Virus record (IMG/VR): IMGVR_UViG_3300047560_001714
Coordinates: 32,001 to 96,000 of that record
Source of the DNA: a virus
Length of the DNA stretch: 64,000 nucleotides
Strand: one strand, 5' to 3'
Within the stretch, counting starts at the first letter, position 1, and every line of letters begins with the position of its first letter. A program made the position numbers and the translations under genes. The notes beneath the pieces were generated by a model. It was not told the DNA's origin, did no database searches, and worked only from the letters and a program-made list of their open reading frames with translations. Below are positions 12,901-58,080 of the stretch, one piece after another.

Positions 12901-13510
12901 TGTTTCTGAGGCAACCCGGCCATTAAAAGAACCCGGTAACAAGGTGTTTATTAGAAATAATGATGCAATTCAAATTTTGAAGAAAGTGCAAGCACTGAAA
13001 GAACAGTCAATGTTTGAAACAGTACACCCACGTAACCCATTTGGGCTTGTGAGTAATTTTACAAACTTTCACGAAAATGAATTTCCAAATTCAGTTAAAA
13101 CATACGCAAGACATAAAATCAGATATACCGATTATGCTGTGATTCCTAAAAATCACGAGTTAATTGAAAAGCATAAGGTTTTAGTTCCAAATGCCACTGG
13201 TTCTGGCGATGGTCTCAAAGACGTACTCAAACCAATATATGGCGAACCAGGGTCTTGCTGTACTGAAACATATATTGTAACTGGTGCATTTGATACCGAG
13301 GATGAAGCAAGAAATCTTATTTCGTATATCAATACTAAATTCTTTCATTTCATGCTTACCTTGAAAAAGAATACCCACGTAACATCTAGAAAAGAATATA
13401 TGTTTATTCCTGTTCAAGATTTTACAAAACCTTGGACCGACGAGGAATTGTTCAATAAATACGGACTAACTGATGATGAGGTCGCAAACTTGTTAGGGTC
13501 GGTAAGATGA
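9947..13510 (+). CDS. Type IIG-like restriction-modification fusion (putative nuclease, SF2 helicase-like, N6-adenine MTase, TRD)
   Basis: TARGKT, DERH, LTATPY, EQLLGRMIR helicase motifs; VGNPPY and ITPSRW Eco57I-type MTase motifs. Confidence 0.8.
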   Translation: MSISINGKNAEIHVFSTHNFSGKLNANQVLLYLTPFKLGKVSRNSSAGLTPDRAFRERYKNQRSSMAGNMIASDFFVVDKNKGEEYDYDEAFRKYIHILFKAGLIPFDALYKGYQKPGQNAEALINFDRDSDLETLKEVLRNFCGLSDSFNSKESISWRYKQFEDAIEIVEKLETHSICLYAAHTARGKTKIASEVAARLLPTGGIVLVTTPITDTKKSFEDNIKNYHFGPNRDMSAIYLDNAEFNKYSISELRDKANNGELVYVVLTVQDARYNDSYDLSDDVLREKYAELSDNIDLWIRDERHFQYNGDKTSKRLANIDARYILDLTATPYNVLDKYSADQIIARTLPWGLQHKNHTKLPNIAINAINTPFCNVNNNISHLFSTEEGFTPIKLFLRQNNQFLMQSDIVETFDRFYHSPISRNKNPLSIINDPELSMVSKNCGLVVLPAGQGNDSANSYIPALAKMLNASSKTFFIDSYSLEKMCPDDTSIGDYVDTLISKHGRVIILTCGKFLTGTDIPALGHIVLFDKMDSISSFEQLLGRMIRNYDGKDDVKLYALSPGASLQIVLGRLAKSNAILNEGTEYDFLDCIPLSEYVADKYVVVDPDTIMDSTRAWCKDQVSVTLSTTQLQSALKNIDLSFFRYSNLQSGIQSTETTLTDVTGAVDKVQTKPDRKESSDDKISNNDLEKAITLIKAISLEASWVAYSMNNYNFEDVYTSDAITGMFGSDIIQHLLIVISNSEKLEQLIRSDLLKKQQAFAALPPREVYSDLFKNSAMKQKLGLVYVDFEVADKLVSEIPFVDTDESITVDLVVFNALNGTIPLAIKDRYSNVNVTCVETFPYFNAHLSQLGFNVIPWDDFITMNKEVHLSKFSVYVGNPPYQQQDGGNGSSAKPIYQLFVNKAIEDDPEHILMITPSRWMTGGKGLDKFRAQMLADTRINVIHDYHSSKELFPNVEIKGGVCYFRWDRDGSGDCQIFQHYSNGVVSEATRPLKEPGNKVFIRNNDAIQILKKVQALKEQSMFETVHPRNPFGLVSNFTNFHENEFPNSVKTYARHKIRYTDYAVIPKNHELIEKHKVLVPNATGSGDGLKDVLKPIYGEPGSCCTETYIVTGAFDTEDEARNLISYINTKFFHFMLTLKKNTHVTSRKEYMFIPVQDFTKPWTDEELFNKYGLTDDEVANLLGSVR

Positions 13511-13914: not shown

Positions 13915-14069
13915 GATAAATAATGATGGATTTAGAAATAAATCCATCAAATATTTCTTGACAAAATTTATTAATTATTTTATAATAATGATAAATAAAA
14001 TTAGTAAACGCCGATTGGGTTTACAAAACTGGCATAGTGCCAAACAACTCGCTTAATAGGAGAATTACA

Positions 14070-15980
14070 ATGAGTAAAATTATAGGTATTGACTTAGGTA
14101 CAACAAATTCGTGTGTTGCCATTTTAGAAAATGGTGTTTCAAAAGTTATTGAAAATTCTGAAGGCACGAGAACAACCCCCTCAATCATTGCATATACTGA
14201 CAATGAAATCTTAGTTGGTGCTGCGGCGAAACGCCAAGCAGTTACTAACCCAAAAAATACAATTTATGCTGCAAAACGCTTAATTGGACGTAAGTTCGAA
14301 GAAGATGCAGTTCAAAAAGACATCTCACTTATGCCATATGCAATCGTCAAAGCCGACAACGGTGACGCTTGGATTGAAGCAAATGGTGAAAAACTTGCAC
14401 CCCCACAAATTTCCGCTGAAGTACTTCGTAAAATGAAAAAAACCGCTGAGGATTATCTTGGCACCGAGGTCACTCAAGCTGTTATTACTGTTCCTGCTTA
14501 CTTTAACGATTCACAACGCCAAGCAACAAAAGATGCTGGTCGTATCGCTGGATTAGAAGTATTACGTATTATCAATGAACCAACTGCGGCGGCATTGGCC
14601 TATGGTGTTGACAAAACTGATAATAAAGATCGTAAGATTGCGGTTTACGATTTGGGTGGTGGTACATTTGACATCTCAATCATTGAAATCGCTAACATCG
14701 ATGGTGAAAAACAAATCGAGGTATTATCAACAAACGGTGATACTTTCTTAGGTGGTGAGGATTTTGATCAAAGACTAATGGATTATTTGGTCGATGAATT
14801 CAAAAAAGACACCGCTGTCGATTTAAAAAATGATACGATGGCATTGCAACGATTAAAAGAGGCTGCTGAAAAAGCAAAAATCGAATTATCGTCATCAGAA
14901 CAAACTGATGTAAATTTACCATACATCACAGCAGATGCATCTGGTCCAAAACATCTAAACGTCAAAATCACTCGTGCTAAATTCGAAGCACTGGTTGAAG
15001 ATTTGATCGAACGTAGTATTACACCATGTAAAATCGCTATCAAAGATGCTAAAGTTAGTTTAAGTGATATCGATGAAGTTATTTTAGTCGGTGGTCAAAC
15101 TCGTATGCCAAAAGTACAAGCGGCGGTTGAAGCGTTGTTTGGAAAATCCCCACGTAAAGATGTTAATCCAGATGAAGCTGTCGCGGCTGGTGCAGCTGTA
15201 CAAGGTGCGGTATTAGCTGGCGATAAAACAGACGTGTTATTGTTAGACGTAACACCATTAAGTTTGGGTATTGAAACAATGGGCGGTGTATTCACCAAAT
15301 TGATTCAAAAAAATACCACTATCCCAACTAAAGCAAGTCAAACCTTCTCGACAGCCGATGATAATCAACCAGCGGTAACTATCAAAGTTGCGCAAGGTGA
15401 ACGTGAGTTATATCAATATAACAAACAGCTCGGTGAATTCAACCTTGACGGTATCAACCCAGCACCCCGTGGTGTACCACAAATTGAGGTAACGTTCGAT
15501 ATCGATGCAAATGGTATTATGCACATTTCAGCATCCGATAAAGCAACTGGAAAGAAAAACCATATTACTATTAAATCAGATTCTGGCTTATCAGAGGACG
15601 AAATTACACGTATGGTTAGAGATGCTGAGGAAAACGCGGAGGCTGATAAAAAAGCTAAAGAATTGATTGAAGCTCGCAACCAAACAGAAGCACAACTTCA
15701 TAGTATTCAAAAAGATTACAATGAAGTTAAAGATGAACTATCTGATGATGAAAAAGCGGCGATTGATGAAGCTATCACCAACGTGAATACTGCGGTAACT
15801 AGCGATGATATTGAGAAAATGAAAGAGTCAACATCAAAGCTAATGGAATCAGCAACCCCAGTTTTTGCTAAAAAGCAAGAAAAAGCCTCAGCACAAGAGC
15901 CAACATCATCCGATGAGGTTCCTATCCAAGCTGAGTTTACTGAGGTTGAAACCCCAAATTCTACTGAAGATAAAAAATAA
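14070..15980 (+). CDS. dnaK: Molecular chaperone DnaK (Hsp70)
   Basis: [27 protein letters not shown], proteobacterial-type sequence; AGGAG SD. Confidence 0.98.
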
Positions 15981-16045
15981 TACCAAGTGTAATATTGCCC
16001 CTAGAATGGGTATTCTAGGGGTTCTCTTGTAAAGGATTTTTAGTT

Positions 16046-16474
16046 ATGACTCCAACAGTAAAGGTAATCGATACCGCAACATTAGCACAATTAAGCAGAG
16101 CACTTATCGGATTTGACCGTATATTTAATAATATAGAATCAAGAAACTCATCGAGTAATTATCCACCATATAACATTCTTAAATATGATGAAAACAACTA
16201 CGAAATTGAAATCGCGGTTGCCGGATATGATAGAGATGAAATCGAGGTATTAGTCGATCAAGATCAATTAATAATTCGTGGTGACCGTCGTAAAGATGAA
16301 GACCCATCATTGTATATTCATCGTGGATTGGCATCACGCGCATTTGAAAAGTCATTTACACTTCCACAATATATGGAAGTCGTAAATGTAGGGTTGACGA
16401 ATGGAATTTTATATGTTAAACTGCTCCTCGAAGTTCCAGAAACGCTTAAACCGCGTATTTTAAAAATACAATAA
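16046..16474 (+). CDS. Small heat shock protein Hsp20 (IbpA-like)
   Basis: NYPPYNI, EIAVAGY, YIHRGLASRAF, LTNGIL. Confidence 0.93.
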   Translation: MTPTVKVIDTATLAQLSRALIGFDRIFNNIESRNSSSNYPPYNILKYDENNYEIEIAVAGYDRDEIEVLVDQDQLIIRGDRRKDEDPSLYIHRGLASRAFEKSFTLPQYMEVVNVGLTNGILYVKLLLEVPETLKPRILKIQ

Positions 16475-16525
16475 TTTTTTCAACTGAGGGGGATTTCCCC
16501 CTCACCTTTTATGGGGATACACATT

Positions 16526-16828
16526 ATGTCTACTGACATCGCAGTTAAAGAACGCACACGAATTAAAATCTCAGAACCTAAAAAATGGAGTGTAATCATT
16601 TTAAATGATGACCACACCTCATTTGAATTTGTTATTTCCATGTTAATTCAAGTTTTCAACCATTCTATCGATTCGGCAAATGAAGTAACAAAATCAGTAC
16701 ACGAACAAGGCGCTGGTGTAGCTGGGGTTTATGATTTTGAAATTGCGGAGGTTAAAGCCGTTGAAGCAACTAAAATGGCACGTGAAAATGGGTTTCCATT
16801 GCAAATTAAAATCGAAAGCGAGGGTTAA
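16526..16828 (+). CDS. clpS: ATP-dependent Clp protease adaptor ClpS
   Basis: VIILNDDHTSFEFV, VHEQGAGVAGVY, FPLQIKIE. Confidence 0.92.
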   Translation: MSTDIAVKERTRIKISEPKKWSVIILNDDHTSFEFVISMLIQVFNHSIDSANEVTKSVHEQGAGVAGVYDFEIAEVKAVEATKMARENGFPLQIKIESEG

Positions 16829-17362
16829 ATGAGTTTAAAAGAAATCACAAAAGAATTGCACACAGAAGCCGAGAAATCGGCTTTTGCTAAACTATTGTTA
16901 AGTGGTAATATTACCAAAGAAAAGTATGTGCAATACTTAACAGAAATGCAACCAATTTATCAGTTGATTGAAAAACACGCATCCGCACAAGGGATATTAG
17001 ACACCTTGCCTGGTATTAAACGTGCTAATGCTATTTTAGAAGATATCAGAGAGCTGTCAGATGTTGTACCATCCTCTGTGTTAAAACCAACCGTTGATTA
17101 TCTTATATACTTAGATAAATTATGTGAGGACGTGGCGACTAAACACCTAATTAAAGCTCATCTATATGTCAGACATATGGGCGACTTATTTGGTGGTCAA
17201 TTCATTGCAAAAAAAGTTCCGGGTTCTGGTAAGTTTTACCAATTTGATAACCCAGATGAACTGAAAGTTGCCATTAGAGAGTTGCTCACAGATGATCTAG
17301 GGGATGAAGCGAAAGTTGCATTCCAATGGGCAATAAAAATTATGGATGCGCTCGGTGAGTAA
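16829..17362 (+). CDS. Heme oxygenase (HemO/Ho1-like)
   Basis: LKEITKELHTEAE, AHLYVRHMGDLFGGQ, AFQWA. Confidence 0.92.
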   Translation: MSLKEITKELHTEAEKSAFAKLLLSGNITKEKYVQYLTEMQPIYQLIEKHASAQGILDTLPGIKRANAILEDIRELSDVVPSSVLKPTVDYLIYLDKLCEDVATKHLIKAHLYVRHMGDLFGGQFIAKKVPGSGKFYQFDNPDELKVAIRELLTDDLGDEAKVAFQWAIKIMDALGE

Positions 17363-18032
17363 CGTTTGGGATACCTTAGTATCAATTCAAATACATTTTG
17401 AAAAAATGATTGGTACTAACGGTATAGAAATCAACGAAAAAGGCATGGATAGATTCAACCAACCTGGTTGGATTAACCGTGTCTGGACCAGTGAAGCATT
17501 TCGTAGAGCGCACATTGATGTTGTGGATGCTAGAGAGAGTAAAGGGTTGTGGATGATGCATTGTTGTATTTTTCCACACACTCATAATGCGGCACCAATA
17601 TTTGGGTTTGACGTTGTTGCAGGTCGAAATAAAATCACTGGCTGTTTTTATGATTTTAGCCCATCTGGTTCATCAAATCACGAAATGGCGGAATGGTTTG
17701 ATGAAAGTGTTAAAGATCTTGAGTGGAAAAAGACACGCGAATTACCACCTTGGGCTGAACGTATTTTTAGTCATAATATGATTGCGGCAAGTAATGTTCA
17801 ATCAGATGATGAATTAAAACAGATCCACGAAATGGCAACATCTGGTATTGATTTCTATCTACAACAAGTTGGTACGTATAACAATACCACAAAAGATGTT
17901 ACCGCGTTGCATAACTTTTATGCACAGAACCAAAAACAAAATCCACATACCCCAAAAGTTATGGCAGCACTTGGGTTAGATGAGGATGATGTTAAGGTGT
18001 TCATCAATGACTGTCTGTTCCCAGAACTCTAA
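17355..18032 (+). CDS. Ferredoxin-dependent bilin reductase (PcyA/PcyX family)
   Basis: RRAHIDVVD, MMHCCIFP, PIFGFDVVAG, RELPPWAERIFS, QKQNPHTPKVM; probable GTG start overlapping the heme oxygenase stop. Confidence 0.88.
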   Translation: MSNVWDTLVSIQIHFEKMIGTNGIEINEKGMDRFNQPGWINRVWTSEAFRRAHIDVVDARESKGLWMMHCCIFPHTHNAAPIFGFDVVAGRNKITGCFYDFSPSGSSNHEMAEWFDESVKDLEWKKTRELPPWAERIFSHNMIAASNVQSDDELKQIHEMATSGIDFYLQQVGTYNNTTKDVTALHNFYAQNQKQNPHTPKVMAALGLDEDDVKVFINDCLFPEL

Positions 18033-18092: not shown

Positions 18093-18572
18093 ATGACTAA
18101 AATTATAGGTTTATTACTTATACTTGTTTGTTCGCAAGCACTATCCGCCGAATTGGTACATCAATTTAATAGTCCATCATTTAGTGGTATTGGTTACAGT
18201 GCGCACGTACTTACTATAAACCAATTAGAAAATCAAGCGGCAGATAAAAATAAAGCATTAGCTGATTCTATAAAAGCAAAGGCGGAGGCGGCAGCATTGA
18301 ATACCCCCGAAGCTAAATTCTTGGCTAACTTAGAATCTAGAATATACTCACAACTCGCAAAACAATTAACTGATACTATGTTTAGCGAGGGAAATACTTG
18401 TAATATCCCAGGAACAGTTTGTGGCTCAATACCAGATTTGGGCGGAAACCATGTTACATGGAGTTTGGGCGCAGGGACTGATCAAGGAATGATAATCATT
18501 GATATTGTCAATAACTCTAACCCAGCGCAAACAACGTCGATGAAGGTACCATCCGGTTCATTTTACTTTTAA
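18093..18572 (+). CDS. Curli assembly protein CsgF-like
   Basis: Signal peptide then ELVHQFNSPSFSG; KFLANLESRIYSQLAKQL. Confidence 0.8.
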   Translation: MTKIIGLLLILVCSQALSAELVHQFNSPSFSGIGYSAHVLTINQLENQAADKNKALADSIKAKAEAAALNTPEAKFLANLESRIYSQLAKQLTDTMFSEGNTCNIPGTVCGSIPDLGGNHVTWSLGAGTDQGMIIIDIVNNSNPAQTTSMKVPSGSFYF

Positions 18573-18574
18573 CT

Positions 18575-19405
18575 ATGAAAAAAATTATACTATTATTCGT
18601 TATATTAATATTACAAGGGTGTGCAACAACAAGTGAATTGCATAAATTAATTACTGGCGATCAATTCGATGATCCAGTGATTGAAAAGCAATCTTATCTT
18701 ATCAAAGACGAAAGTTGGATTGCACCACCAACAAATGGGGCAATTCCAATTGCAGTGTATGGGTTTGTGGATAAAACTGGGCAACGTAAAGCTGTCCCTA
18801 ATATCGCATCCTTAAGTTCGGCTGTTACACAAGGTGCAGAAAGTTATTTGATTAAGTCGTTACAAGACGTGGGTGAATCAAAATGGTTCACTGTGGTTGA
18901 ACGAGTTGGTCTGGATAATTTAATTAAAGAACGACAAATGATTCGTCAGACTAGAGAACAATTCCAAGGCCGTGATGCACAACAATTACCAGCAATGACA
19001 TTTGCGGGAATAATTGCCGAAGGTGCTATCGTCGGTTATGATTCTAACACAACCACTGGTGGTGCTGGCGTCAGATTATTTGGAATCGGTGGTGAAACTC
19101 AGTATCAAAGCGACACAGTCACTGTTAGTTTAAGAACAGTATCAGTTACGTCTGGTGAAATATTAACATCAGTGTTAGTAACAAAAACAGTATTGAGTTA
19201 CGTGGATAAAGCTGGTGTATTAAAATTTGCTGCATCAGGTACATCAGCAATAGAGGCCGAGGTCGGTGGAAGTATAAATGAAAGTATAAACAGAGCAACC
19301 AATAAAGCGATCCAAGCTGCAGTACTCGATACAATTAAAGAAGGGGCGCGTAAAGGTCACTGGGCAATTCAATCTGTTCCAAATCCTTACGTATTAAACC
19401 ATTAA
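18575..19405 (+). CDS. Curli secretion channel CsgG-like lipoprotein
   Basis: Lipobox LQGC, FVDKTGQRK, WFTVVERVGLDNLIKERQMIR, GAIVGYD. Confidence 0.9.
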   Translation: MKKIILLFVILILQGCATTSELHKLITGDQFDDPVIEKQSYLIKDESWIAPPTNGAIPIAVYGFVDKTGQRKAVPNIASLSSAVTQGAESYLIKSLQDVGESKWFTVVERVGLDNLIKERQMIRQTREQFQGRDAQQLPAMTFAGIIAEGAIVGYDSNTTTGGAGVRLFGIGGETQYQSDTVTVSLRTVSVTSGEILTSVLVTKTVLSYVDKAGVLKFAASGTSAIEAEVGGSINESINRATNKAIQAAVLDTIKEGARKGHWAIQSVPNPYVLNH

Positions 19406-19441
19406 GGAGCATTGGCAAATAATATTGTTCAATGATAATAA

Positions 19442-20221
19442 ATGAAAACATTAACATTATTTCTACTTTCGATTTTATTTTTTTCTAACGCGTATGGCGC
19501 GGCAGCTGGTGAAAATAAAGTATATATAGAGCAAGCTGGTAACACCAATACCATTACAATAGACCAAATAGGTGGTGGTAATATGGTCGGAGGTACAACC
19601 TCAACAACAATAGCCGTGAATGGCGCAGGGGTGACAACTATCACACCTGCTAGTCCTAGTTCATCTAACTACGCGTTGATAACTGGGAATACAAATAGTT
19701 TAACATTAAACCACTTAGGTGATACTAACTGGGCTCAATATGTCATTACTGGGAGTAATAATATCTACTCTAATAAAATTACTGGGAATAGTAATATATC
19801 AATTCTAACAATCGGAAAAGTATTACCAACTCCTATGGCAAATCTTAGAAATAATATAAATGAAGAAATAATTGGTAATACTAATTATACAATCCAATCT
19901 ATTTCCAATGATGATATTATTAGTAACTTAAAAATAACCGGCGATCAAAACCAAGTTACCACAGACTTAGGTTCTAGTTTTGGAAAAGTAAATACAGTTA
20001 TCACAGGCGGAAATAATATTCTATTCAATACTCAAGCTGGTGTTGCTACTGGTCATGATCTTACTCAAGATATTCTAGGCAGTTTTAACTCAATATCAAC
20101 TCAACAGTTGGGTGTAAATGATTCCATAATAGATATTAAAGTTAATGGCGATCATAATACGATTACAGTTCATTCAAGTGATAGCACTATTGCGTCACCA
20201 TTAATTGCAACACCACGATAA
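19442..20221 (+). CDS. Secreted curlin-like beta-repeat protein
   Basis: Signal peptide; repeated xIxQxGxxN and ITGxxN motifs. Confidence 0.7.
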   Translation: MKTLTLFLLSILFFSNAYGAAAGENKVYIEQAGNTNTITIDQIGGGNMVGGTTSTTIAVNGAGVTTITPASPSSSNYALITGNTNSLTLNHLGDTNWAQYVITGSNNIYSNKITGNSNISILTIGKVLPTPMANLRNNINEEIIGNTNYTIQSISNDDIISNLKITGDQNQVTTDLGSSFGKVNTVITGGNNILFNTQAGVATGHDLTQDILGSFNSISTQQLGVNDSIIDIKVNGDHNTITVHSSDSTIASPLIATPR

Positions 20222-21306
20222 TGTACATTATAGCCTTATTATTTTTGTTTATTTCTAATTCATACGCTGGTATTGGTACCGTTGTTGATGCAACTGGTAC
20301 CAATTGCACAATAGAGCGTAGTTCTAAAAAAATCTCTGGTGAAAAAGGGGCGATAGTTGAAAGTATGGATACCTATATTACTGGTAGTTGTGTAAGTAAT
20401 ATAACTTTTGACGATGGTACCAAAGTTAAAGTAAACGAAAATAGTAAGCTATTCATAGATGAATTTGTTTACGATCCAAAACAATCAGATGCAGGTAAAC
20501 TAGCTATCAAAGTCGGAATGGGTACTGTTCGTTATGCATCTGGTCAAATAGCTAAAAACAATCCACAAAAAGTTGATATAAAAACACCGACGGCAGCAGT
20601 TGCAGTGCGTGGTACTGACTTTACTATGACTGTCGATGAGATTGGTCAAAGCTTAGTGGTACTTGTTCCAAGTTGTAAAGATGAAAAAGATGTAAAAAAG
20701 TATGAACTACAAGAAAACACTTGCCAAGTTGGTAGAATAATAGTTTCAAATGGTATGGGTTCTGTTGAACTATCCGAGGCATACCAAGCTACTTTTGTTA
20801 ACAGCAATGTGGTGCAACCAACACCACCAGTTGTAATCAATATGACTGAGGGGCAAATTGGGAATAATCTTATCATATTGAAACCAGCGGAAATTCAAAA
20901 AGCGGTTAAAGAAAATACCAGAACCCAAAAAGACTCCGAGAATGATGCAGCTGAGGATGAAACCGCCAGACGCTCAACTAGTATGGCACTGAAATCCGCC
21001 GAACTAAATGATGCAAAAATATCCTCATCTAAAAAACTACAAATTGATAAATCTTGTAACCCATCCTCATCAGTATGTGTGGCTTGGGAAAATAAAGATG
21101 CCGAGGGGCAAGCAAAAGGAATTGGGGTAGCGTATAGATTCCAACCGGATGAACATTATACTGAAATAAAGACACAAGGTTATACCTCTAATACCTCAAT
21201 ATCAATAACACAAAACGATGAATTCGCATCGACCGTCATAGGGGATGGTGCCGCCGGTGGAAACATCATTACTATCAAACAACAAAATGGAGTGTTAAAT
21301 AAATGA
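20221..21306 (+). CDS. FecR-domain protein
   Basis: FDDGTKVKVNENSKLFIDEFVYDP, IKTPTAAVAVRGTDF. Confidence 0.85.
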   Translation: MYIIALLFLFISNSYAGIGTVVDATGTNCTIERSSKKISGEKGAIVESMDTYITGSCVSNITFDDGTKVKVNENSKLFIDEFVYDPKQSDAGKLAIKVGMGTVRYASGQIAKNNPQKVDIKTPTAAVAVRGTDFTMTVDEIGQSLVVLVPSCKDEKDVKKYELQENTCQVGRIIVSNGMGSVELSEAYQATFVNSNVVQPTPPVVINMTEGQIGNNLIILKPAEIQKAVKENTRTQKDSENDAAEDETARRSTSMALKSAELNDAKISSSKKLQIDKSCNPSSSVCVAWENKDAEGQAKGIGVAYRFQPDEHYTEIKTQGYTSNTSISITQNDEFASTVIGDGAAGGNIITIKQQNGVLNK

Positions 21307-21764
21307 GACATTTGTTACTTTTTCTTTTATGCTCTATATGTTACGCTGATAATTTAACATCAGTTAACCAAATTGGTAATAGCAACGATATTGAAATTAA
21401 CCAAATAGGTGATGTAAATAATATATCGTATTCTGGTAATGGTTCCTTTAATACCGTCAATGTTGAACAAATCGGTAATCAAAAAACTGCAAACTTAACT
21501 GTTATTAATAATAACAATATCATAGACGTATCACAAAGTGGTACTGGGATTGATTCGGCAACAATAGCGGTTAGTGGTGGACTTAAAAATATATCAGTAA
21601 CACAAGAAGGTTCCGGGTCACATTCAGCAACCATAAACTTATCTGGAACACCTATTACATTTGATCTAACTCAATCTGGAGTTAATAATCAAACATTTTC
21701 AATCACGGCAAATTGTGCCCTAGTGGGCGGTTGCGCCGCAGTTCAAGTCATTCAAAATCAATAA
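21303..21764 (+). CDS. Secreted curlin-like repeat protein
   Basis: VNQIGNSN, INQIGDVN, VEQIGNQK, VSQSG, VTQEG repeats. Confidence 0.75.
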   Translation: MRHLLLFLLCSICYADNLTSVNQIGNSNDIEINQIGDVNNISYSGNGSFNTVNVEQIGNQKTANLTVINNNNIIDVSQSGTGIDSATIAVSGGLKNISVTQEGSGSHSATINLSGTPITFDLTQSGVNNQTFSITANCALVGGCAAVQVIQNQ

Positions 21765-21802
21765 TCGATAAATACAATAGCTAGTTCAGCAAGGAGGCAG
21801 CT

Positions 21803-21877
21803 ATGAAGTGGACCACACCAACATTCGTTGATATTCGATTAGGGTTTGAAGTAACACTGTATATCTATAACCGCTAA
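21803..21877 (+). CDS. pqqA: PQQ precursor peptide PqqA (MKWTTPTFVDIRLGFEVTLYIYNR), not in the ORF track
   Basis: AAGGAGG SD 21791-97, ATG 21803, TAA 21875-77; 24 aa with the PqqA hallmark W..P...D.R.GFEVTxY. Confidence 0.92.
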   Translation: MKWTTPTFVDIRLGFEVTLYIYNR

Positions 21878-21920
21878 TCTTTTGTGCTGGATGTTTCTAG
21901 CACCAATAATAAGGATAGCA

Positions 21921-22793
21921 ATGTCAGTTATAATACTAACAAAACCCGATAAAAACGATTTTGAAACTAACAAACTTATAGAGGAATTTGAAAATCGGCA
22001 AATCCAAGTTCGGGTTTGCCAATTCAAACACTTTGACGTAATAATTAATAAAGGTATATTTTACAAAGGCAAACATATTGAACCACCAAAAGTTGTATTA
22101 GTAAGACTAGGCGCAGGAATCACTCGTAAAGAATTAGCAGTAATACGGTACTTTGAGTTATCTGGTATTAAATGTTTCAATTCTAGACATAGTATCAATT
22201 TAGTTCAAGATAAATTACATACTAGTGAAATCTTAGCACAATCAGGTATCGCAGTACCCACAACAATGGTTGTCAAATTTCCAGTAAAACATAACTTAGT
22301 TCAAACTCACATAGGATTTCCTTGTATTGTAAAAGTTGTGGTTGGGAGTTTTGGCGAAGGTGTATATATGTGCCAGACAGAACAAGAATATAATAGAATT
22401 ATAGAATTTGTGGATAGTCTTAGTACAGATAAAACTCTGATCGTTCAAGAATACTTAGGTGATAACCCAGGTACAGATTTACGAGTGTTCGTTATTGGGG
22501 GTAAGGTTATCGGTGCAATGAAAAGAACCGCACCAGTCGGTGATTTCCGGGCGAATATCACAATAGGCGGTTCTGGTGAATCATACCCAGTAAATAAAGA
22601 AATCGAAGATATTGTTCTTAATACCACTAAAATCCTTGGGTTAGATATTGCTGGCATTGACCTATTATTTGATAACCGTGGTTTCCGTGTTTGCGAAGCC
22701 AATTCGAATCCAGGATTCTCTGGGTTTAACAAATACTGCGATGTTAATATCCAAGAACACATCGTTGATTTTATACAAGGACACTTACCGTGA
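21921..22793 (+). CDS. RimK-family ATP-grasp ligase
   Basis: QDKLHTSEIL, IVQEYL, DLRVFVIG, FRANITIGG, AGIDLLF, CEANSNPGF. Confidence 0.9.
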   Translation: MSVIILTKPDKNDFETNKLIEEFENRQIQVRVCQFKHFDVIINKGIFYKGKHIEPPKVVLVRLGAGITRKELAVIRYFELSGIKCFNSRHSINLVQDKLHTSEILAQSGIAVPTTMVVKFPVKHNLVQTHIGFPCIVKVVVGSFGEGVYMCQTEQEYNRIIEFVDSLSTDKTLIVQEYLGDNPGTDLRVFVIGGKVIGAMKRTAPVGDFRANITIGGSGESYPVNKEIEDIVLNTTKILGLDIAGIDLLFDNRGFRVCEANSNPGFSGFNKYCDVNIQEHIVDFIQGHLP

Positions 22794-22956
22794 AACAGAA
22801 AAAATTATTAAAAAAAGTAATGAAAGCGTCTTTAGAAAATGACACTAAAGCAATCGATAAGCTTAGAATGGAAGAATATGAAAAAATATTTGAACGTAAA
22901 GCACAAAACAAACCATTCACAACACGTTGGACACTTGTGTCAATTTAGGATAATGC

Positions 22957-24303
22957 ATGAGAATTAAAGAATTTCTATTTGAATCAGCGGGTGGTAATAT
23001 GTTAATTAAAAATGGATTAACATACTTACCATTGGCATCTTGGTTAAAACAAGAACTCGGTGATTCACCTGATACCGAAATGGACGAAGCATTTGGGAAG
23101 TTAAACGCACCTGGTAAAGAGGTATCAGATACCAGTATTGGTGATTTCTTAAAAACGATTAAAGATGAACAATTATTAAAAATCACCAAAGAAAAATTAA
23201 ACCCAAATAATGCAAAATTCAAAAATAATCCCAAGAAATATAACGCAGCAGTCGAGAGAAAACAAGCGGCTATCGCTGAATTAGAAAAACGTGATATACA
23301 ACCAACTAATCGGTCGCCAGAACAATATAAAAAAGATTTTATTACAAAACCACATGTTCACGCAACCCCAATTAAATTCATAGATAATGGTACAGAGGTT
23401 GACGTTGAACATATTCGTAATATCATTCTTCAACGCCCAGCTGAAATACTTGGTTCAAATGCAAAAATGGACCATAGTGGCGGCGTTGACCAAGTATACT
23501 TTAAAGTCGGATTACCCGCACTTAGAGGAATGGCAATCGATGAGGAAACTGGTAAATTCATTTACGTAAACACTTGCCCAGGTGCAGGAAGTTGTAAAGT
23601 TGATTGTTTTGCTAAGAAAGGAAACTATGTGGTATTCCCAGGGGTTTGGCAGCATTCGACACAAGTGTTGAATTATTTAATAAATGATCCAGATGGATTC
23701 ATGCAACAATTACACAATGAGATATTAAAAAAAGTTAAGTTATATGAACCACAAAATATTAAAGTTGGTATAAGATGGCATGATTCCGGTGATTTCTTTA
23801 GTCCAGAATACGCTGATATGGCATACAAGTTAGCCAGAAGTCTTCCAAACGTGGATTTCTTTGCTTATACTAAATTTGCATCAGCAATGACTGCCGATAA
23901 ACCTGATAACTTTATTACTAACTGGTCAGAAGGTGCAACACCGGCACAAGATAAAGCGGTTGCATCGCACGCGGCGGAATTGGGTGATAAGTTTAAGCGT
24001 TCAATCATTGTCCCAAAAGAGGCATTTAAACACTTAGTACACAAAGTTACTCCAGTACATGCTAAGGGCAAAAAGAATGAGGTCCTTCAATCAGAGTGGA
24101 ACTCGCCCGAAGCTGAACAAGAATTTAAACAGTGGATGGCACACGCTTACAATTTACCAATTGAATCCATTATTTCATATAATGATTTGGTAAAAATGCC
24201 AAAAACTAATGAACCTAAATGGAACGTAATCGTTAAAACTGGCGACGGTGACATCAGTGCTAATCGCAGAGATGTAATCGGTACTTACCTATTTGCACAT
24301 TAA
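22957..24303 (+). CDS. Gp88-like phage protein (Cys-cluster, radical-SAM-like)
   Basis: NTCPGAGSCKVDCFA, RWHDSGDFFS, FAYTK. Confidence 0.65.
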   Translation: MRIKEFLFESAGGNMLIKNGLTYLPLASWLKQELGDSPDTEMDEAFGKLNAPGKEVSDTSIGDFLKTIKDEQLLKITKEKLNPNNAKFKNNPKKYNAAVERKQAAIAELEKRDIQPTNRSPEQYKKDFITKPHVHATPIKFIDNGTEVDVEHIRNIILQRPAEILGSNAKMDHSGGVDQVYFKVGLPALRGMAIDEETGKFIYVNTCPGAGSCKVDCFAKKGNYVVFPGVWQHSTQVLNYLINDPDGFMQQLHNEILKKVKLYEPQNIKVGIRWHDSGDFFSPEYADMAYKLARSLPNVDFFAYTKFASAMTADKPDNFITNWSEGATPAQDKAVASHAAELGDKFKRSIIVPKEAFKHLVHKVTPVHAKGKKNEVLQSEWNSPEAEQEFKQWMAHAYNLPIESIISYNDLVKMPKTNEPKWNVIVKTGDGDISANRRDVIGTYLFAH

Positions 24304-24317
24304 TTTAAAATAAAGAT

Positions 24318-25319
24318 ATGATTAAGAAAATACTACTCAGCCATTGGACAGCACTAATAACACTAACCTTAGTTGTGCTAGTTCGCGTAATAGATCCATC
24401 ATTTGTTGAAAGTATCCGTTTAAGATACTTCGATACATTGATAACAGCTAAAGCACCCACAGAAAACAATATTATTTCTGTTAATATAGACGAGGATGCT
24501 CTTGATAAGTATGGCCAATGGCCATTTAGTCGAGATATATACGGTTCTATAATCGAGGATTTATACCAGCGAAATGCTGGGTTAGTGGTATTCAATGTCT
24601 TAATGCCAGAAAAGGATAGACTAGGTGGTGATGCGGCATTGGCAAAAACAATCGCTAATAATCCCGTTATCATTCCAAGCGTTGCATCTATAAAATCAAA
24701 AAATACACCAAAAAACCCAGGGGCATCTGTCATTGGTGCGGATTATGCTGATATGATAGTCCAGTTTCCAGGTATAATTTCATCGATTGATATTATCAGT
24801 GAACATGCGGCTGGTGTTGGTATCATCAATACATTACCGGAAATAGATGGCGTCAATAGACGTTTACCTATGTTAGTAACCGCCAAACATACGTTGTATC
24901 CATCACTAAGTATGGAGGTTCTTCGTGTGGTGGCCGGTGATCCATCGTTTCAAGTCAAACTGAATAACTTTGGTGTTGAAAAAATGCGTATACCAGCGTT
25001 TGGTGTAATATCAACCGATTCGTTAAGTCGTGTGTGGATTGATTGGAGTCAACATAATCAAAGTATTAGTTTATCACAGCTACCAAATGATTTTGGTGGT
25101 GCGATAGTAATAGTCGGACCAACCGCCGCTGGTATTAGTAACCCAATCTCTACTCCAAAAGGTCCAATCTTCCCAAATGATATTCAAGCGGCGATGATTG
25201 GTACTATGATGAATAAAGTAACCATCAACAGACCGGACTATTCGGACGGTGCTGAAATTTTAGTTGGTGCCGTTTGTGGTATCTTGTTAATTATAGGTTC
25301 GTTATGGCGGAAGAGATAG
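24318..25319 (+). CDS. CHASE2 sensor domain, N-terminal part of a split adenylate/guanylate cyclase
   Basis: LRYFD, VNIDEDALDKYGQWPFSR, DGVNRRLP; ends after one TM segment. Confidence 0.88.
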   Translation: MIKKILLSHWTALITLTLVVLVRVIDPSFVESIRLRYFDTLITAKAPTENNIISVNIDEDALDKYGQWPFSRDIYGSIIEDLYQRNAGLVVFNVLMPEKDRLGGDAALAKTIANNPVIIPSVASIKSKNTPKNPGASVIGADYADMIVQFPGIISSIDIISEHAAGVGIINTLPEIDGVNRRLPMLVTAKHTLYPSLSMEVLRVVAGDPSFQVKLNNFGVEKMRIPAFGVISTDSLSRVWIDWSQHNQSISLSQLPNDFGGAIVIVGPTAAGISNPISTPKGPIFPNDIQAAMIGTMMNKVTINRPDYSDGAEILVGAVCGILLIIGSLWRKR

Positions 25320-25349
25320 TAAATCCACTAACATTTGATAAATAATATT

Positions 25350-25922
25350 ATGAGAATATATATTATTACAAATTTATCAAACAATCATCGATATGTCGGA
25401 ATGACTACTAAAACATTAGCAGAACGGTGGGCGCAACATAAAGCGGATGCTAAGAGAAATAAACCTTGGATTTTACATAAAGCATTGCGAAAATATGGGT
25501 ATGAGAATTTCAAAATAGAATTATTAGAGGAATGTAATGCTAATTCACTGACAGAATTAGGACTTATTGAAACTAATTACATAACAACACTAAAACCAGA
25601 ATATAATATGACATCTGGTGGTGAAGGGCATAGTGGTATTTCAGCAAAAGGTGAAAAGAACGGGATGTTTAATAAAAAGCACAGTGAAGAAACAAAAGAA
25701 AAAATAAGTATCAACCGAAAAGGAAAAGGAGGACAAGTTGGGGAATTAAATCCTCGATATGGTAAACCTGGTACATTTCTCGGATGTCAGCATTCCGATG
25801 AAACTAAATCAAAAATGCGAAAACCTAAATCAATACCTAGACAACGTGTTTCTTGTGAATTCTGTGGTAGAGAAATAGCCATAAATGCAATCGGGCAGCA
25901 TAAGAGAGCACACCATGAATAA
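25350..25922 (+). mobile_element. Free-standing GIY-YIG homing endonuclease with NUMOD3 repeats
   Basis: IYIITN...YVGMT, YNMTSGGEG, HSEETKEKIS, HSDETKSKMR; GATAAATA late promoter 25337-44. Confidence 0.9.
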
Positions 25923-26982
25923 ACATCTAAGTTATATATTACCACTATTTTTTATTATTATAATATCATTTTTCAGTTTTCATGAATACCAAAATGAACA
26001 CATTCTGTTCGATGTAACATTTCCAGTTATAACAATTGTTCTAGTTACACTACATATTAACACTGTTCGATTTATTACAGAATTAACCCTTAAATTACAA
26101 ATAAAAAAACAATTTGGCACATACCTAAGTGCAGCATTAGTTGAAAAATTGCAGAAAAACCCAGATTTACTCCATTTAGGGGGCGACAGTAGAGAATTAT
26201 CCATTCTCTTTTCCGACGTAAGAGGATTCACATCTATCTCTGAACACTATGGCGAAGATGTCCAAGGGCTTACAAAGATTATGAATAGATATATGACAGC
26301 AATGACAGCAGAAATATTAACAAATGATGGCACACTTGACAAATATATTGGTGATGCTAAAATGGCTTTCTGGAATGCTCCACTTGATGATCCACATCAT
26401 GCAAAAAATGCTGTAAAAACCGCATTACAAATGTTAAAGAACTTGGAGAAGTTTAATAATGAAATCGAAAAAGAAGGAGTTCCAGCTTTCGGGATGGGCC
26501 TTGGTGTTAACACTGCCACTGTGGTTGTTGGCAATATGGGTAGTGATCAGCGTTTCGATTATACCTGCCTTGGTGATGGGGTTAACCTCGCGTCACGGCT
26601 TGAAGGACAATCAAAATCGTATGGGGTTAAAATCGTTCTGGGTCCGAAAACAGCCGACTATGTCAAAGACGAATACTTAGTTCTTGAACTAGACCTACTT
26701 GCAGTTAAAGGTAAAAAACAAGGTGTCACAATCTTTACGGTCTTAGGTGAGAATGATCCCAAATATACAACGCATGATATAAAAATGCATAATAGAATGC
26801 TTGAGTTATATCGCAAACAACGTTGGGATGAAGTTATTCATGCTTGCAATCCATTAAAAAAAGCTTTCAGTGGCGAAATGAAAAAGTATTATGAAATGAT
26901 GCAAGAACGTGCTACTGAATATAGCCAAACTAATAAATTTATTGAAAACTGGGATGGCGTGTACGTTGCCACAAGCAAATAG
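25915..26982 (+). CDS. Class III adenylate/guanylate cyclase, C-terminal part of the split CHASE2 cyclase
   Basis: ILFSDVRGFT, DKYIGDA, GNMGSDQRFDYTCLGDGVNLASRLEG, VKGK. Confidence 0.92.
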   Translation: MNKHLSYILPLFFIIIISFFSFHEYQNEHILFDVTFPVITIVLVTLHINTVRFITELTLKLQIKKQFGTYLSAALVEKLQKNPDLLHLGGDSRELSILFSDVRGFTSISEHYGEDVQGLTKIMNRYMTAMTAEILTNDGTLDKYIGDAKMAFWNAPLDDPHHAKNAVKTALQMLKNLEKFNNEIEKEGVPAFGMGLGVNTATVVVGNMGSDQRFDYTCLGDGVNLASRLEGQSKSYGVKIVLGPKTADYVKDEYLVLELDLLAVKGKKQGVTIFTVLGENDPKYTTHDIKMHNRMLELYRKQRWDEVIHACNPLKKAFSGEMKKYYEMMQERATEYSQTNKFIENWDGVYVATSK

Positions 26983-30004: not shown

Positions 30005-30367
30005 GTCTATAGTTATATTCATATAAATATTTATATCTATCACTATTACCATTAATAACATCATGAAAAAATTATTATCATTATTATCCAGCATTGGTAC
30101 TATCTTATTGTTCATCGTATTCTTCGTTGCGGCATATGTATCATTTACATCGTGTTACCACATAATAGCCGATCAACAAAAAAATGAAATAAAAATTGTG
30201 TTGTTTAAAAGGTCTTGATTTGTATATCATTGACATAAATACTCCCATCAATGCATTGAGAAATATTTAAAAAGTCGTTGACAATTAGTTTTATTCGTGT
30301 ATAATATACTCAACTTAGCAACAATAAGCATATTAGATTTATTAGTGTGCTTATTATTGTTGTAATT

Positions 30368-30700
30368 CCTTCAAAGTGAAGGCATTCAAGACGGGGGTTC
30401 GACTCCCCCCAGTTCCACCATAAAACACATTAGAGGTATCAGAGTGGGGCCATAGCCATAAACTTCCTGCCCCCCCCTAAAAGGGAAGTGCTAGTGTGTT
30501 TTATAATGGGGCTGTCATGGTTTCGATTGGGTGAGATAATGGAGACGGCAACAGGTGAGGTGACTGTCCTAAACAGCGCAAAACAAGTAATCGCAAACGA
30601 TTCAAATTTCGAATTCTATACATTAGATAACATCGATTTAGATGTTATGGCTGCTTAATAACCAGCCGATTCCGGGGCATGTATGCCCTGTTACCTAAAA
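30368..30700 (+). ncRNA. ssrA: Two-piece (circularly permuted) tmRNA
   Basis: T-arm plus CAGTTCC-A-CCA ending at 30420 precedes the GGGGCTG 5' end at 30508 (G3.U70); tag ORF 30593-30658 ANDSNFEFYTLDNIDLDVMAA*. Confidence 0.9.
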
Positions 30701-30707
30701 TACAACT

Positions 30708-30732
30708 AAGCTGCCTTCGGGCAGCTTTTTTT
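30708..30732 (+). terminator. Rho-independent terminator after tmRNA
   Basis: AAGCTGCC-ttcg-GGCAGCTT plus U-run. Confidence 0.9.
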
Positions 30733-33981: not shown

Positions 33982-34500
33982 TAATAATTAAGGCACCTAT
34001 CAGGCAACACTCAGGCACACACACTTCATATGATACTCGCACCGGTAAGGAAAATAGGTGCCGCGAGATAAGGGATGTACTCCGCTTAGAGCGAACTGGG
34101 ATGAAGCAGTAAACTTAGCAACTACCCGAAAGGATGATGATTGGACATGCCTTCCCATATAACCAATTTTGCTATTTTAAGGAACCATAGGCTAAATGAG
34201 GGTTAAAAACCCACCTTATACATATATGATTAGTGTATATATGTATAAGCACCGTCAGACATAAGAAACAAAAACGCGCTTCGAGGTACCGGCTGACCGC
34301 CTCTGTAATTAGCGTAACACTAGTGTCCGTGATTAAGTAACTCAGATGAAATCACTGGATAATTTTTGAATACCATTTGTATTCAAATTTTTTTGCTCCC
34401 GTAAGGGGGCAATAATGTCCGAAATATCATAATCTAGATGAATATATATAAAGAAACATAATTAAACATCATGTCTCTATAATTAATTAAAAAAGATTGT
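33982..34500 (+). ncRNA. Candidate large structured non-coding RNA or replication origin
   Basis: ~520 nt with no long ORF, behind TCGACA-17-TATAAT (33947-75); many hairpins. Confidence 0.45.
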
Positions 34501-57409: not shown

Positions 57410-58078
57410 ATGAATACAATCTATATAGGATATGACGAAAACAGTCCAGTTACCTATCACGTCTGTTCAAACAGTATTATTAGAAAAAGTACCACACCGG
57501 TAGCGTTAATACCATTAGTATTACCATCGTTGCCATATAACGAAACCCATACTGATGGCAGTAACCGATTCGTATACTCTCGATTTTTGGTACCATATTT
57601 ACAAAACTTTACTGGGTGGGCATTATTTATAGATGGGGATATGGTCGTGACCGATGATATTACCACATTATTTACAGAGTTCTTAGACCCATCTAAAGGG
57701 GTGGTTGTTGTTAAGCATTCTTATACAACCAACTCTAAAATAAAATATCTAAACCATACGAATGATGATTATCCGAGAAAAAATTGGAGTAGTGTAATAT
57801 TATGGAATTGTTCCTATTACAAAAATAAAATATTAACCCCAAAAACAATATCTGAATCAACCGGTAGTTTCTTACATAGGTTTTCTTGGTTGGACGATTT
57901 TGAGATAGGAGAATTACCGATCGAATGGAACTGGTTACCTGATGAATTTGGTGAAAATCCAAAAGCAAAAATAATTCATTACACATTAGGTGCACCGTGC
58001 TTTAATGGATACGAAACTACGCCAATGAATGAATTATGGCATCAAGAATTGAAAAACACAATATATTGCGTACAATAA
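57410..58078 (+). CDS. Glycosyltransferase (GT8-like)
   Basis: IYIGYD, FVYSRFLVP, FIDGDM, YPRKNWSSVILWNC, IHYTLGAP. Confidence 0.88.
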   Translation: MNTIYIGYDENSPVTYHVCSNSIIRKSTTPVALIPLVLPSLPYNETHTDGSNRFVYSRFLVPYLQNFTGWALFIDGDMVVTDDITTLFTEFLDPSKGVVVVKHSYTTNSKIKYLNHTNDDYPRKNWSSVILWNCSYYKNKILTPKTISESTGSFLHRFSWLDDFEIGELPIEWNWLPDEFGENPKAKIIHYTLGAPCFNGYETTPMNELWHQELKNTIYCVQ

Positions 58079-58080
58079 TT

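What the first reader, a model, noticed from the sequence alone, without database searches (positions are those of the whole stretch)
21777..22793. Phage-encoded PqqA precursor peptide next to a RimK-type ATP-grasp ligase
Seen: a 24-aa ORF too short for the track, MKWTTPTFVDIRLGFEVTLYIYNR, with a strong AAGGAGG SD after a GATAAATA late-type promoter, 43 nt before an ATP-grasp gene. No pqqBCDE is in the window. Established: PqqA supplies the Glu and Tyr (EVTxY) of PQQ, the cofactor of methanol dehydrogenase. Inference: it is an auxiliary metabolic gene boosting PQQ supply in a methylotrophic or methanotrophic host. Alternatively the peptide (K, four T, D, E) is a substrate of the adjacent ATP-grasp enzyme, as in graspetide clusters. 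The leader also folds ATAGCT-AGTTCAGCAA-GGAGGC-AGCTAT-G, a CAGCA-like stem that would hide the SD, so it may be tied to the DUF2828 system.
Basis: partly seen in the sequence, partly recalled or inferred. Interest (0 to 1): 0.8.

Follow-up and report, generated by a model that had tools for sequence, protein, structure and literature searches.

The report
Phage copy of PQQ precursor gene
A giant T4-related phage carries a real 24-codon copy of pqqA, the small peptide bacteria use up to make the redox cofactor PQQ, most likely to keep the host's PQQ supply going during infection; such viral copies are already known, and the RimK-type ligase next door looks like an unrelated neighbour.

Summary
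A 24-codon ORF (21803-21877, +) with a strong Shine-Dalgarno sequence lies 28 nt after a GATAAATA motif and 43 nt before a RimK-family gene. It scores 45.2 bits on TIGR02107 (cut-off 20) and 41.4 bits on PF08042 (cut-off 21.1), keeps the Glu-x3-Tyr pair, and is under purifying selection.

The record is half of a roughly 370-kb T4-related phage. Neither it nor 12 large relatives, three of them complete, encode pqqB, C, D or E, so the peptide must feed host enzymes.

The RimK link does not hold:
- The closest relatives have the same promoter-rimK junction without pqqA.
- Complete relatives carry pqqA 29-37 kb from rimK.
- One complete relative has rimK and no pqqA.
- At least 120 other viral contigs carry pqqA and none has rimK nearby.

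The leader hairpin is weak (z = -1.0), is not conserved, and does not fit the CAGCA handle.

A methylotroph host is unproven. This peptide is closer to Burkholderiaceae and Enterobacterales PqqA (62-73%) than to methylophage PqqA (50-58%).

Viral pqqA was published in 2020 (PMC7678222), and this scan has already noted it in at least 107 other genomes. This is a new member of a known kind. In one relative, pqqA is split by a group I intron.

The parts
21767..21774 (+). GATAAATA, a T4-type late-promoter-like motif (7 of 8 matches to TATAAATA)
   Evidence: 24 of 65 ATAAATA copies lie in the 5.9% of the genome that is intergenic. 21 of 41 plus-strand NATAAATA sites end within 60 nt upstream of a start codon. 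The motif is conserved at the same spot before pqqA (L009-L011) or directly before rimK (L006, L007, L012, L019). The family is T4-related: Gp23 capsid protein in 5 of 5 relatives. 'Late' timing is inferred.
21777..21804 (+). Weak leader hairpin (6-bp palindromic stem, loop holding CAGCA and the SD)
   Evidence: -7.8 kcal/mol, z = -1.03. Not conserved in L009-L011. Does not fit the CAGCA-handle consensus. Probably incidental.
21791..21797 (+). Shine-Dalgarno sequence AAGGAGG, 5 nt before the ATG
   Evidence: Read directly. An SD-like motif is present in all 121 distinct phage pqqA contexts surveyed.
21803..21877 (+). pqqA, the 24-aa PQQ precursor peptide (cross-link pair Glu15 and Tyr19)
   Evidence: TIGR02107 45.2 bits against cut-off 20; PF08042 41.4 bits against 21.1. 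Orthologues in L009-L011 score 33.8-43.8 bits. Many synonymous changes with a near-invariant core.
21884..21903 (+). Hairpin after pqqA with no T-run; candidate attenuator or 3' stabiliser
   Evidence: -12.5 kcal/mol, z = -2.35. Non-homologous hairpins sit at the same place in L009 and L011 but not in L010. No terminator was called here. 95 of 121 phage pqqA contexts have a downstream hairpin of -8 kcal/mol or stronger.
21921..22793 (+). RimK-family alpha-L-glutamate ligase (290 aa), probably co-transcribed with pqqA; substrate unknown
   Evidence: TIGR00768 230.6 bits against cut-off 143.4. PF18030 plus PF08443 cover the full length. Below the equivalog cut-offs for RimK, MptN, LysX and CofF. 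Closest solved structures are RimK 7QYS, 5ZCT and 4IWX. Belongs to a viral clade of at least 80 IMG/VR loci.
22790..22948 (+). Conserved 52-aa ORF overlapping the rimK stop codon (GTGA); function unknown
   Evidence: Homologues at 36-48% identity lie near rimK in L035, L047, L051, L052 and L083. No Pfam or NCBIfam hit.

Best explanation
This is a genuine pqqA gene carried as a small auxiliary cassette by a giant T4-related phage. Shown: the ORF, its SD and its family membership; purifying selection; its position between a conserved late-type promoter motif and the phage's own rimK; the absence of every other pqq gene from this phage and from complete relatives. Inferred: the gene is transcribed with rimK from the GATAAATA promoter, and the hairpin after the ORF stabilises or attenuates the transcript. 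The 24-aa peptide is then bound by the host's PqqD, cross-linked between Glu15 and Tyr19 by host PqqE, trimmed, and finished by host PqqB and PqqC into PQQ. One peptide is consumed per PQQ molecule. A phage copy would therefore keep precursor supply, and with it PQQ-dependent periplasmic dehydrogenases and respiration, running once host transcription falls. RimK is an independent phage gene that happens to lie downstream.
For: HMM scores are twice the curated cut-offs and cover the full model. Four orthologues keep residues 10-19 except position 18, despite many synonymous changes, e.g. Ser TCA against AGT. The cassette (SD, ORF, hairpin) fills a roughly 155-nt gap in the window and L009-L011, where L006, L007, L008, L012, L019 and L057 have about 30 nt between the same promoter motif and rimK. 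pqqA is present in 3 of 4 relatives that are at least 90% complete, while pqqC and pqqE are present in 0 of 12. There is no PqqD or PqqB in the record. At least 120 further IMG/VR contigs carry clean 23-25-aa pqqA ORFs. Cultured methylophages carry it unannotated. One relative maintains the gene across a group I intron. Viral PqqA has already been proposed as an auxiliary gene (PMC7678222).
Against: There is no expression or biochemical data. The host is unknown, so the presence of host pqqBCDE is assumed. The record is only about 51% complete, although complete relatives lack pqqC and pqqE. The PqqC control search rang in no control genome, so that negative rests on the model working, as it did for PqqE, PqqB and PqqD. 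Late timing is inferred from a motif. The benefit of extra precursor during a short infection is untested.
Confidence: 0.7

Rival explanations
1. The peptide is the substrate or partner of the adjacent RimK-type ligase, giving a RiPP-like pair that is glutamylated or cross-linked as in graspetide clusters.
For: The two genes are 43 nt apart with no terminator between them. pqqA lies within 1.1 kb of rimK in three arrangement types: window with L009-L011, L066, and L054. That is roughly 3-8 times more often than uniform placement would give.
Against: rimK stands directly behind the same promoter without pqqA in the closest relatives, L006 and L019 at 67% identity. Complete genome G411 has rimK but no pqqA. 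G409, G410, G417, G418 and G420 have pqqA 29-105 kb from rimK. None of at least 120 pqqA contigs has rimK. In L066 a canonical terminator and a separate promoter motif lie between the two genes. The enzyme is RimK-type and the peptide ends in Asn-Arg, not the acidic C-terminus used by RimK or LysX. Four of the six adjacent cases belong to one clade, and the region is an accessory-gene island.
Confidence: 0.05
2. The leader hairpin is a CAGCA-type handle through which the phage's Ro60-like (DUF2828) protein controls pqqA translation.
For: A 6-bp stem, a CAGCA in the loop and a closing G are present.
Against: The fold is not better than shuffles (z = -1.03). CAGCA and the palindrome are absent from the L009, L010 and L011 leaders. 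The genuine elements have a 5' T, a 7-bp WGGWT-type stem and a 3-nt linker, none of which is met. About seven similarly loose short hairpins occur in the window.
Confidence: 0.03
3. The gene is a neutral passenger picked up from a host pqq operon, or a decoy that ties up host PqqD/PqqE to shut PQQ synthesis down.
For: It is a small cassette with patchy presence inside its clade. No function has been measured.
Against: Purifying selection. Presence in 3 of 4 complete relatives and in at least 120 other viral contigs. It has its own strong SD everywhere. It is retained across an intron. The Glu and Tyr are intact, so it is a substrate rather than a dead-end inhibitor.
Confidence: 0.1

Closest known systems
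Viral PqqA of Lake Baikal Methylophilaceae phages (Coutinho et al. 2020, Microbiome 8:163, PMC7678222)
   Same: A stand-alone pqqA on a viral contig without pqqBCDE, read as an auxiliary gene for host PQQ supply.
   Different: Those phages were assigned to methylotrophs and one population also carried methanol dehydrogenase. Here the phage is a roughly 370-kb T4-related type with no PQQ dehydrogenase, an unknown host and a different peptide type.
Unannotated pqqA of cultured methylophages (Melnitz, P19250A, MEP301/401/402, Venkman)
   Same: A 23-24-aa ORF passing TIGR02107 (Melnitz 34 bits), with no other pqq gene nearby. Melnitz also shares the curli csgGF genes and a two-piece tmRNA.
   Different: Core EMRFGFEVTMY (94 of 120 IMG/VR copies) against DIRLGFEVTLY here, 12 of 22 core identities. 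No rimK adjacency. CsgG is only 45% identical.
Bacterial PqqA (TIGR02107 / PF08042), e.g. of Ralstonia, Paraburkholderia, Rahnella, Klebsiella
   Same: Same length and same W-x2-P ... G-x-E-V-T-x-Y architecture, 62-73% identity.
   Different: The bacterial genes head pqqBCDE operons, as in the bacterial contig mislabelled Acinetobacter phage MD-2021a. The phage gene stands alone.
RimK, ribosomal protein S6 L-glutamate ligase (E. coli 4IWX/5ZCT; 7QYS/7QYR), and cyanophage 'S6 glutaminyl transferase' genes
   Same: Full-length match, pre-ATP-grasp plus ATP-grasp domains. About 40% identical to S-RIM8, S-RIM12, S-RIM32 and S-CAM8 genes.
   Different: Scores 158 bits against the 331-bit equivalog cut-off, so S6 specificity is not established. 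It belongs to a viral clade whose best cellular relatives reach only 44%.
Graspetide (microviridin-type) clusters
   Same: A short peptide gene next to an ATP-grasp gene.
   Different: The ligase is of the RimK family, the peptide is a bona fide PqqA, and co-occurrence is not conserved.

Membership tests
PqqA (TIGR02107 / PF08042) | Profile score above the curated cut-off over the full model | tested here: met
   45.2 bits against 20 (positions 1-21 of 21); 41.4 bits against 21.1
PqqA (TIGR02107 / PF08042) | Short peptide (about 20-40 aa) with the Glu-x3-Tyr pair that becomes PQQ | tested here: met
   24 aa with Glu15 and Tyr19; the pair is invariant in all phage copies aligned
PqqA (TIGR02107 / PF08042) | Encoded with pqqB, C, D, E in the same genome | tested here: not met
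   None in the 188-kb record or in 12 large relatives. The pathway must be the host's, as for other viral and orphan bacterial copies.
PqqA (TIGR02107 / PF08042) | Converted to PQQ by PqqE, PqqD, PqqB and PqqC | not testable with these tools
   Needs complementation or an in vitro assay
Phage auxiliary pqqA (as in PMC7678222) | Lies in a bona fide phage genome, conserved among related phages and under selection | tested here: met
   Virus record; Gp23 in relatives; orthologues and synonymous changes; 3 of 4 complete relatives carry it
Phage auxiliary pqqA (as in PMC7678222) | Host is a methylotroph with PQQ-dependent methanol dehydrogenase | tested here: inconclusive
   Peptide type is nearer Burkholderiaceae and Enterobacterales than methylophage copies. 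Beta-type tmRNA and a Polynucleobacter-1 RNA are only weak host hints. The genome search by taxon gave nothing usable.
RimK family (TIGR00768) | Subfamily profile above cut-off, with both the RimK N-terminal and ATP-grasp domains | tested here: met
   230.6 bits against 143.4; PF18030 and PF08443
RimK proper (S6 glutamate ligase, NF007764), MptN, LysX, CofF | Equivalog-level score | tested here: not met
   158 against 331; 158 against 350; 153 against 276; 90 against 300
Graspetide cluster | Graspetide-type ATP-grasp macrocyclase and a precursor that co-occurs with it across relatives | tested here: not met
   Best families are all RimK-like. rimK occurs without pqqA and pqqA without rimK.
CAGCA-handle (Y-RNA-like) elements of this phage | 5' T, 7-bp WGGWT-type stem, 3-nt linker, CAGCA, closing stem, G; conserved in relatives | tested here: not met
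   Only CAGCA, a different 6-bp stem and the closing G are present. The motif is absent from the L009-L011 leaders.
T4-type late promoter | TATAAATA-like box 20-40 nt upstream of genes, in a T4-related phage | tested here: met
   7 of 8 match; positional enrichment; conserved in relatives; Gp23 family. gp55 and expression timing were not tested.

The most novel reading that the evidence does not exclude
The repeated placement of pqqA within about 1 kb of rimK (three arrangement types, two peptide types) reflects function. Under this reading the RimK-type ligase adds glutamate to the PqqA peptide or to a PQQ intermediate, giving a phage-specific variant of the pathway.
Probability: 0.05. Interest if true: 0.75.

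Novelty: new member of a known kind. Interest (0 to 1): 0.3.

Why it matters
It adds a giant T4-related phage family to the viruses that carry only the consumable precursor of a cofactor pathway. It also shows that this tiny gene is systematically missed by gene callers. The peptide type suggests that viral support of PQQ metabolism may extend beyond methylotrophs to other PQQ-using bacteria, which would widen the ecological reading of this auxiliary gene. The biology itself, a phage supplying PqqA to host enzymes, was proposed in 2020 and remains untested experimentally. The value here is therefore confirmatory plus comparative detail.

Tried and rejected
- **Mistyped scan:** the IMG/VR pattern scan had one N too many (55-nt matches). 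Its two hits, L004 and L005, are chance. It was redone correctly.
- The contexts of the nearest RimK homologues (P0001 at 90%, P0003 at 71%) could not be read.
- **Host inference failed:** The genome search needed a G handle. The 401-genome phylum search with the 24-aa protein raised no usable candidates and reports no taxonomy, so it is uninformative. The picocyanobacterial genomes carrying the nearest cellular RimK have no pqqA. A text search for printed PqqA motifs found nothing.
- **PqqE candidate rejected:** the radical SAM/SPASM protein at 58952-59764 scores 31.6 bits against a 381-bit cut-off and sits with an aminotransferase and a glycosyltransferase-like gene.
- **Mislabelled record:** the 'Acinetobacter phage MD-2021a' hit is a bacterial contig with fur, ppk and pqqBCDE.
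- **No constant rimK partner:** neighbours across 80 loci are heterogeneous.
- **No terminator or promoter signal:** no intrinsic terminator, and no above-chance sigma-70 promoter signal, in 21300-23000.
- **No solved relative:** the PDB holds no sequence relative of the peptide.

Full report
**What is there.** The window is bases 32001-96000 of a 187,935-bp IMG/VR virus record that CheckV rates about 51% complete. A 24-codon ORF occupies 21803-21877 on the + strand and encodes MKWTTPTFVDIRLGFEVTLYIYNR. AAGGAGG lies at 21791-21797, 5 nt before the ATG. GATAAATA lies at 21767-21774, 3 nt after the stop of the upstream curlin-repeat gene. A hairpin at 21884-21903 follows the ORF (-12.5 kcal/mol, z = -2.35). 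The ATP-grasp gene starts at ATG 21921, 43 nt after the pqqA stop. That start is fixed by an invariant Met1 in 29 aligned homologues.

**Is it PqqA?** Yes. TIGR02107 gives 45.2 bits (cut-off 20) over all 21 model positions, and PF08042 gives 41.4 bits (cut-off 21.1). A six-frame search of the whole record finds this site alone, and no control genome exceeds the cut-off. The Glu15-x3-Tyr19 pair is present. Orthologues in three related contigs pass the same model at 33.8-43.8 bits. They differ by as many synonymous-codon as non-synonymous-codon changes, while residues 10-19 vary only at position 18. That pattern indicates purifying selection on the peptide.

**What kind of genome.** GC content is 36%. 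Complete relatives of 361-372 kb have direct terminal repeats and Gp23-type capsid genes at 268-327 bits, so the family is giant and T4-related. The gene sits in an island of host-like accessory genes:
- DnaK, Hsp20, ClpS, heme oxygenase and bilin reductase
- CsgF, CsgG, curlin-like proteins and a FecR-domain protein
- then pqqA, RimK and a GP88-like protein
- and a CHASE2-cyclase

The nearest GenBank phages by CsgG are pelagimyophage HTVC008M and methylophage Melnitz, at 45% identity.

**No other pqq genes.** PqqB, PqqC and PqqD give no hit in the record. PqqE gives only a generic radical-SAM match far below cut-off. That protein (58952-59764) is a radical SAM/SPASM enzyme scoring 31.6 bits against 381, and it lies in an unrelated cluster. 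The record is half a genome, so I also searched 12 large relatives, including three complete ones. PqqC was found in 0 of 12, PqqE above cut-off in 0 of 12, and pqqA in 5 of 12, or 3 of the 4 that are at least 90% complete. No PQQ-dependent alcohol dehydrogenase occurs in the record or in five relatives.

**The promoter motif.** GATAAATA is not over-represented by count. However, 24 of 65 ATAAATA copies lie in the 5.9% of the genome that is intergenic, against about 10 expected. Also, 21 of 41 plus-strand NATAAATA sites end within 60 nt of a start codon. The motif is conserved at the orthologous position in eight relatives. Reading it as a T4-type late promoter is therefore reasonable. The timing remains inferred.

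**Linkage to rimK.** The RimK protein belongs to a viral clade: 80 IMG/VR loci at 48-67% identity. The best cellular relatives reach 44%, in picocyanobacterial MAGs that lack pqqA. The family gene order is curli-like operon, rimK, CHASE2-cyclase.
- In L006, L007, L008, L012, L019 and L057, about 30 nt holding the promoter motif separate the curlin-like gene from rimK.
- In the window and L009-L011, the gap is about 155 nt and holds an SD, pqqA and usually a hairpin.
- On the quick maximum-likelihood RimK tree, pqqA-bearing and pqqA-free loci are interleaved inside this clade. L010 is sister to L019, and L011 is sister to L008 and L012. This implies ancestral presence with repeated loss, or cassette exchange.
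- Two other clades show other arrangements. In L054, pqqA lies 1 kb downstream on the opposite strand. In L066, an intron-split pqqA is followed by a canonical terminator and a separate promoter motif before rimK.
- In whole-contig searches, pqqA lies about 29, 37, 37, 54 and 105 kb from rimK in G409, G410, G417, G418 and G420. There it is a free-standing cassette with an SD and a canonical terminator. Complete genome G411 has rimK but no pqqA.
- None of at least 120 further pqqA contigs has a RimK homologue, and rimK has no constant neighbour.

Adjacency is roughly 3-8 times more frequent than uniform placement would give. Four of the six adjacent cases belong to one clade, and the region is an accessory-gene island. 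I read the adjacency as shared ancestry plus island structure, not functional coupling.

**RimK itself.** It passes the RimK subfamily model but none of the equivalog models. It matches solved RimK structures over its full length. It is about 40% identical to cyanophage genes annotated as S6 glutaminyl transferase. Its substrate is unknown. The peptide's Asn-Arg C-terminus is unlike known RimK or LysX acceptors.

**The leader hairpin and CAGCA.** The palindrome folds no better than shuffled sequence. The palindrome and the CAGCA are both missing from the L009, L010 and L011 leaders. Compared with the window's own CAGCA elements, whose coordinates I took from earlier notes as a lead, the leader lacks the 5' T, the 7-bp WGGWT-type stem and the 3-nt linker. 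This link is not supported.

**How common, and what is known.** All 120 hits are clean 23-25-aa ORFs starting with Met, and 94 share the EMRFGFEVTMY core with cultured methylophages P19250A and Melnitz. In GenBank those phage copies are unannotated or overlain by a wrong-strand call, and the Melnitz paper does not mention pqqA. Coutinho et al. 2020 reported a viral PqqA in Lake Baikal phages and proposed the auxiliary-gene role. This scan has noted phage pqqA in at least 107 other genomes.

**Host.** Unresolved. The window's core, DIRLGFEVTLY, is a minority type. It shows 12 of 22 core identities to methylophage copies, and 62-73% identity to plasmid-borne PqqA of Ralstonia, Paraburkholderia, Rahnella and Klebsiella. 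A Betaproteobacteria-type two-piece tmRNA and a Polynucleobacter-1 RNA in the window hint at a betaproteobacterial host. Phage tmRNAs need not match their host, as the Melnitz paper shows. A methylotroph host is possible but not shown; I put it near 40%.

**Mechanism and verdict.** The best-supported reading is a precursor-supply auxiliary gene, with confidence 0.7. The phage makes the one component of PQQ synthesis that is consumed stoichiometrically, and host PqqE, PqqD, PqqB and PqqC do the chemistry. This is a new member of a known kind, and the RimK and CAGCA ideas are not supported.

**Limits.** One scan was mistyped and repeated. The taxon-wide genome search was uninformative. The RimK tree is the quick search, not the finished careful one.

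Noticed in passing
L066:3608-3914 (IMGVR_UViG_3300027741_003327): In this related phage, pqqA is split by a group I intron of about 230 nt (Rfam RF00028, 93.9 bits against gathering 50). Exon 1 ends ...GGCT after a U.G pair in a P1 helix UUGGCU/GGCCAA. The intron ends in G. The joined exons read as a perfect 24-aa PqqA. The intron sits just before the Phe-Glu-Val-Thr codons, the most conserved part of a 75-nt gene.
   Followed up: partly
window 24318-26982: The CHASE2-adenylate/guanylate cyclase gene is split by a free-standing GIY-YIG/NUMOD3 homing-endonuclease ORF (25335-25922). The two halves align to residues 1-332 and 349-689 of the single 689-aa protein in L006. No intron was detected by Rfam.
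   Followed up: partly
window 18093-21764: The curli-like module here includes CsgF, CsgG, two curlin-repeat-like proteins (19442-20221; 21303-21764, which has Curlin_rpt and weak CsgA/CsgB hits) and a FecR-domain protein. The Melnitz paper reports that marine relatives lack fibre subunits, so this family may encode a complete secretion-plus-fibre set.
   Followed up: no
window 30306-30730 and 34034-34177: A two-piece tmRNA best matched by the Betaproteobacteria model (123.5 bits) and a Polynucleobacter-1 RNA motif (53.6 bits), plus at least 17 tRNA genes between 36102 and 47474.
   Followed up: no
window 14037-18032: A run of host-like genes: full-length DnaK (870 bits), Hsp20, ClpS, heme oxygenase and a ferredoxin-dependent bilin reductase. 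In many relatives this block, rather than the curli module, lies directly upstream of rimK.
   Followed up: no
L003:6001-6072 (Melnitz-1, MZ577095.1) and L294:3001-3066 (P19250A, KX815270.1): Cultured methylophages carry pqqA unannotated. In Melnitz a hypothetical CDS is called on the opposite strand over it, and the gene sits just before a tRNA-Leu. In P19250A it lies in an unannotated gap next to a GGDEF/EAL gene.
   Followed up: partly
L295 (CAKLQF020000010.1, 'Acinetobacter phage MD-2021a'): This 144-kb 'phage' record is a bacterial chromosomal contig (fur, ppk, pqqB-E, dipeptidase). It contaminates phage-database hits for pqqA.
   Followed up: yes
window 22790-22948: A conserved 52-aa basic protein whose GTG start overlaps the rimK stop. 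Homologues lie near rimK in at least five other contigs. There is no family hit.
   Followed up: partly
window 58036-59764: A histidinol-phosphate-aminotransferase-like gene overlaps a 270-aa radical SAM/SPASM gene, next to a weak glycosyltransferase-8-like gene. This is an unassigned tailoring module, not PqqE.
   Followed up: partly
window 9947-13510: A 1187-aa protein with ResIII helicase and Eco57I methylase domains: a restriction-modification-like enzyme in a phage.
   Followed up: no
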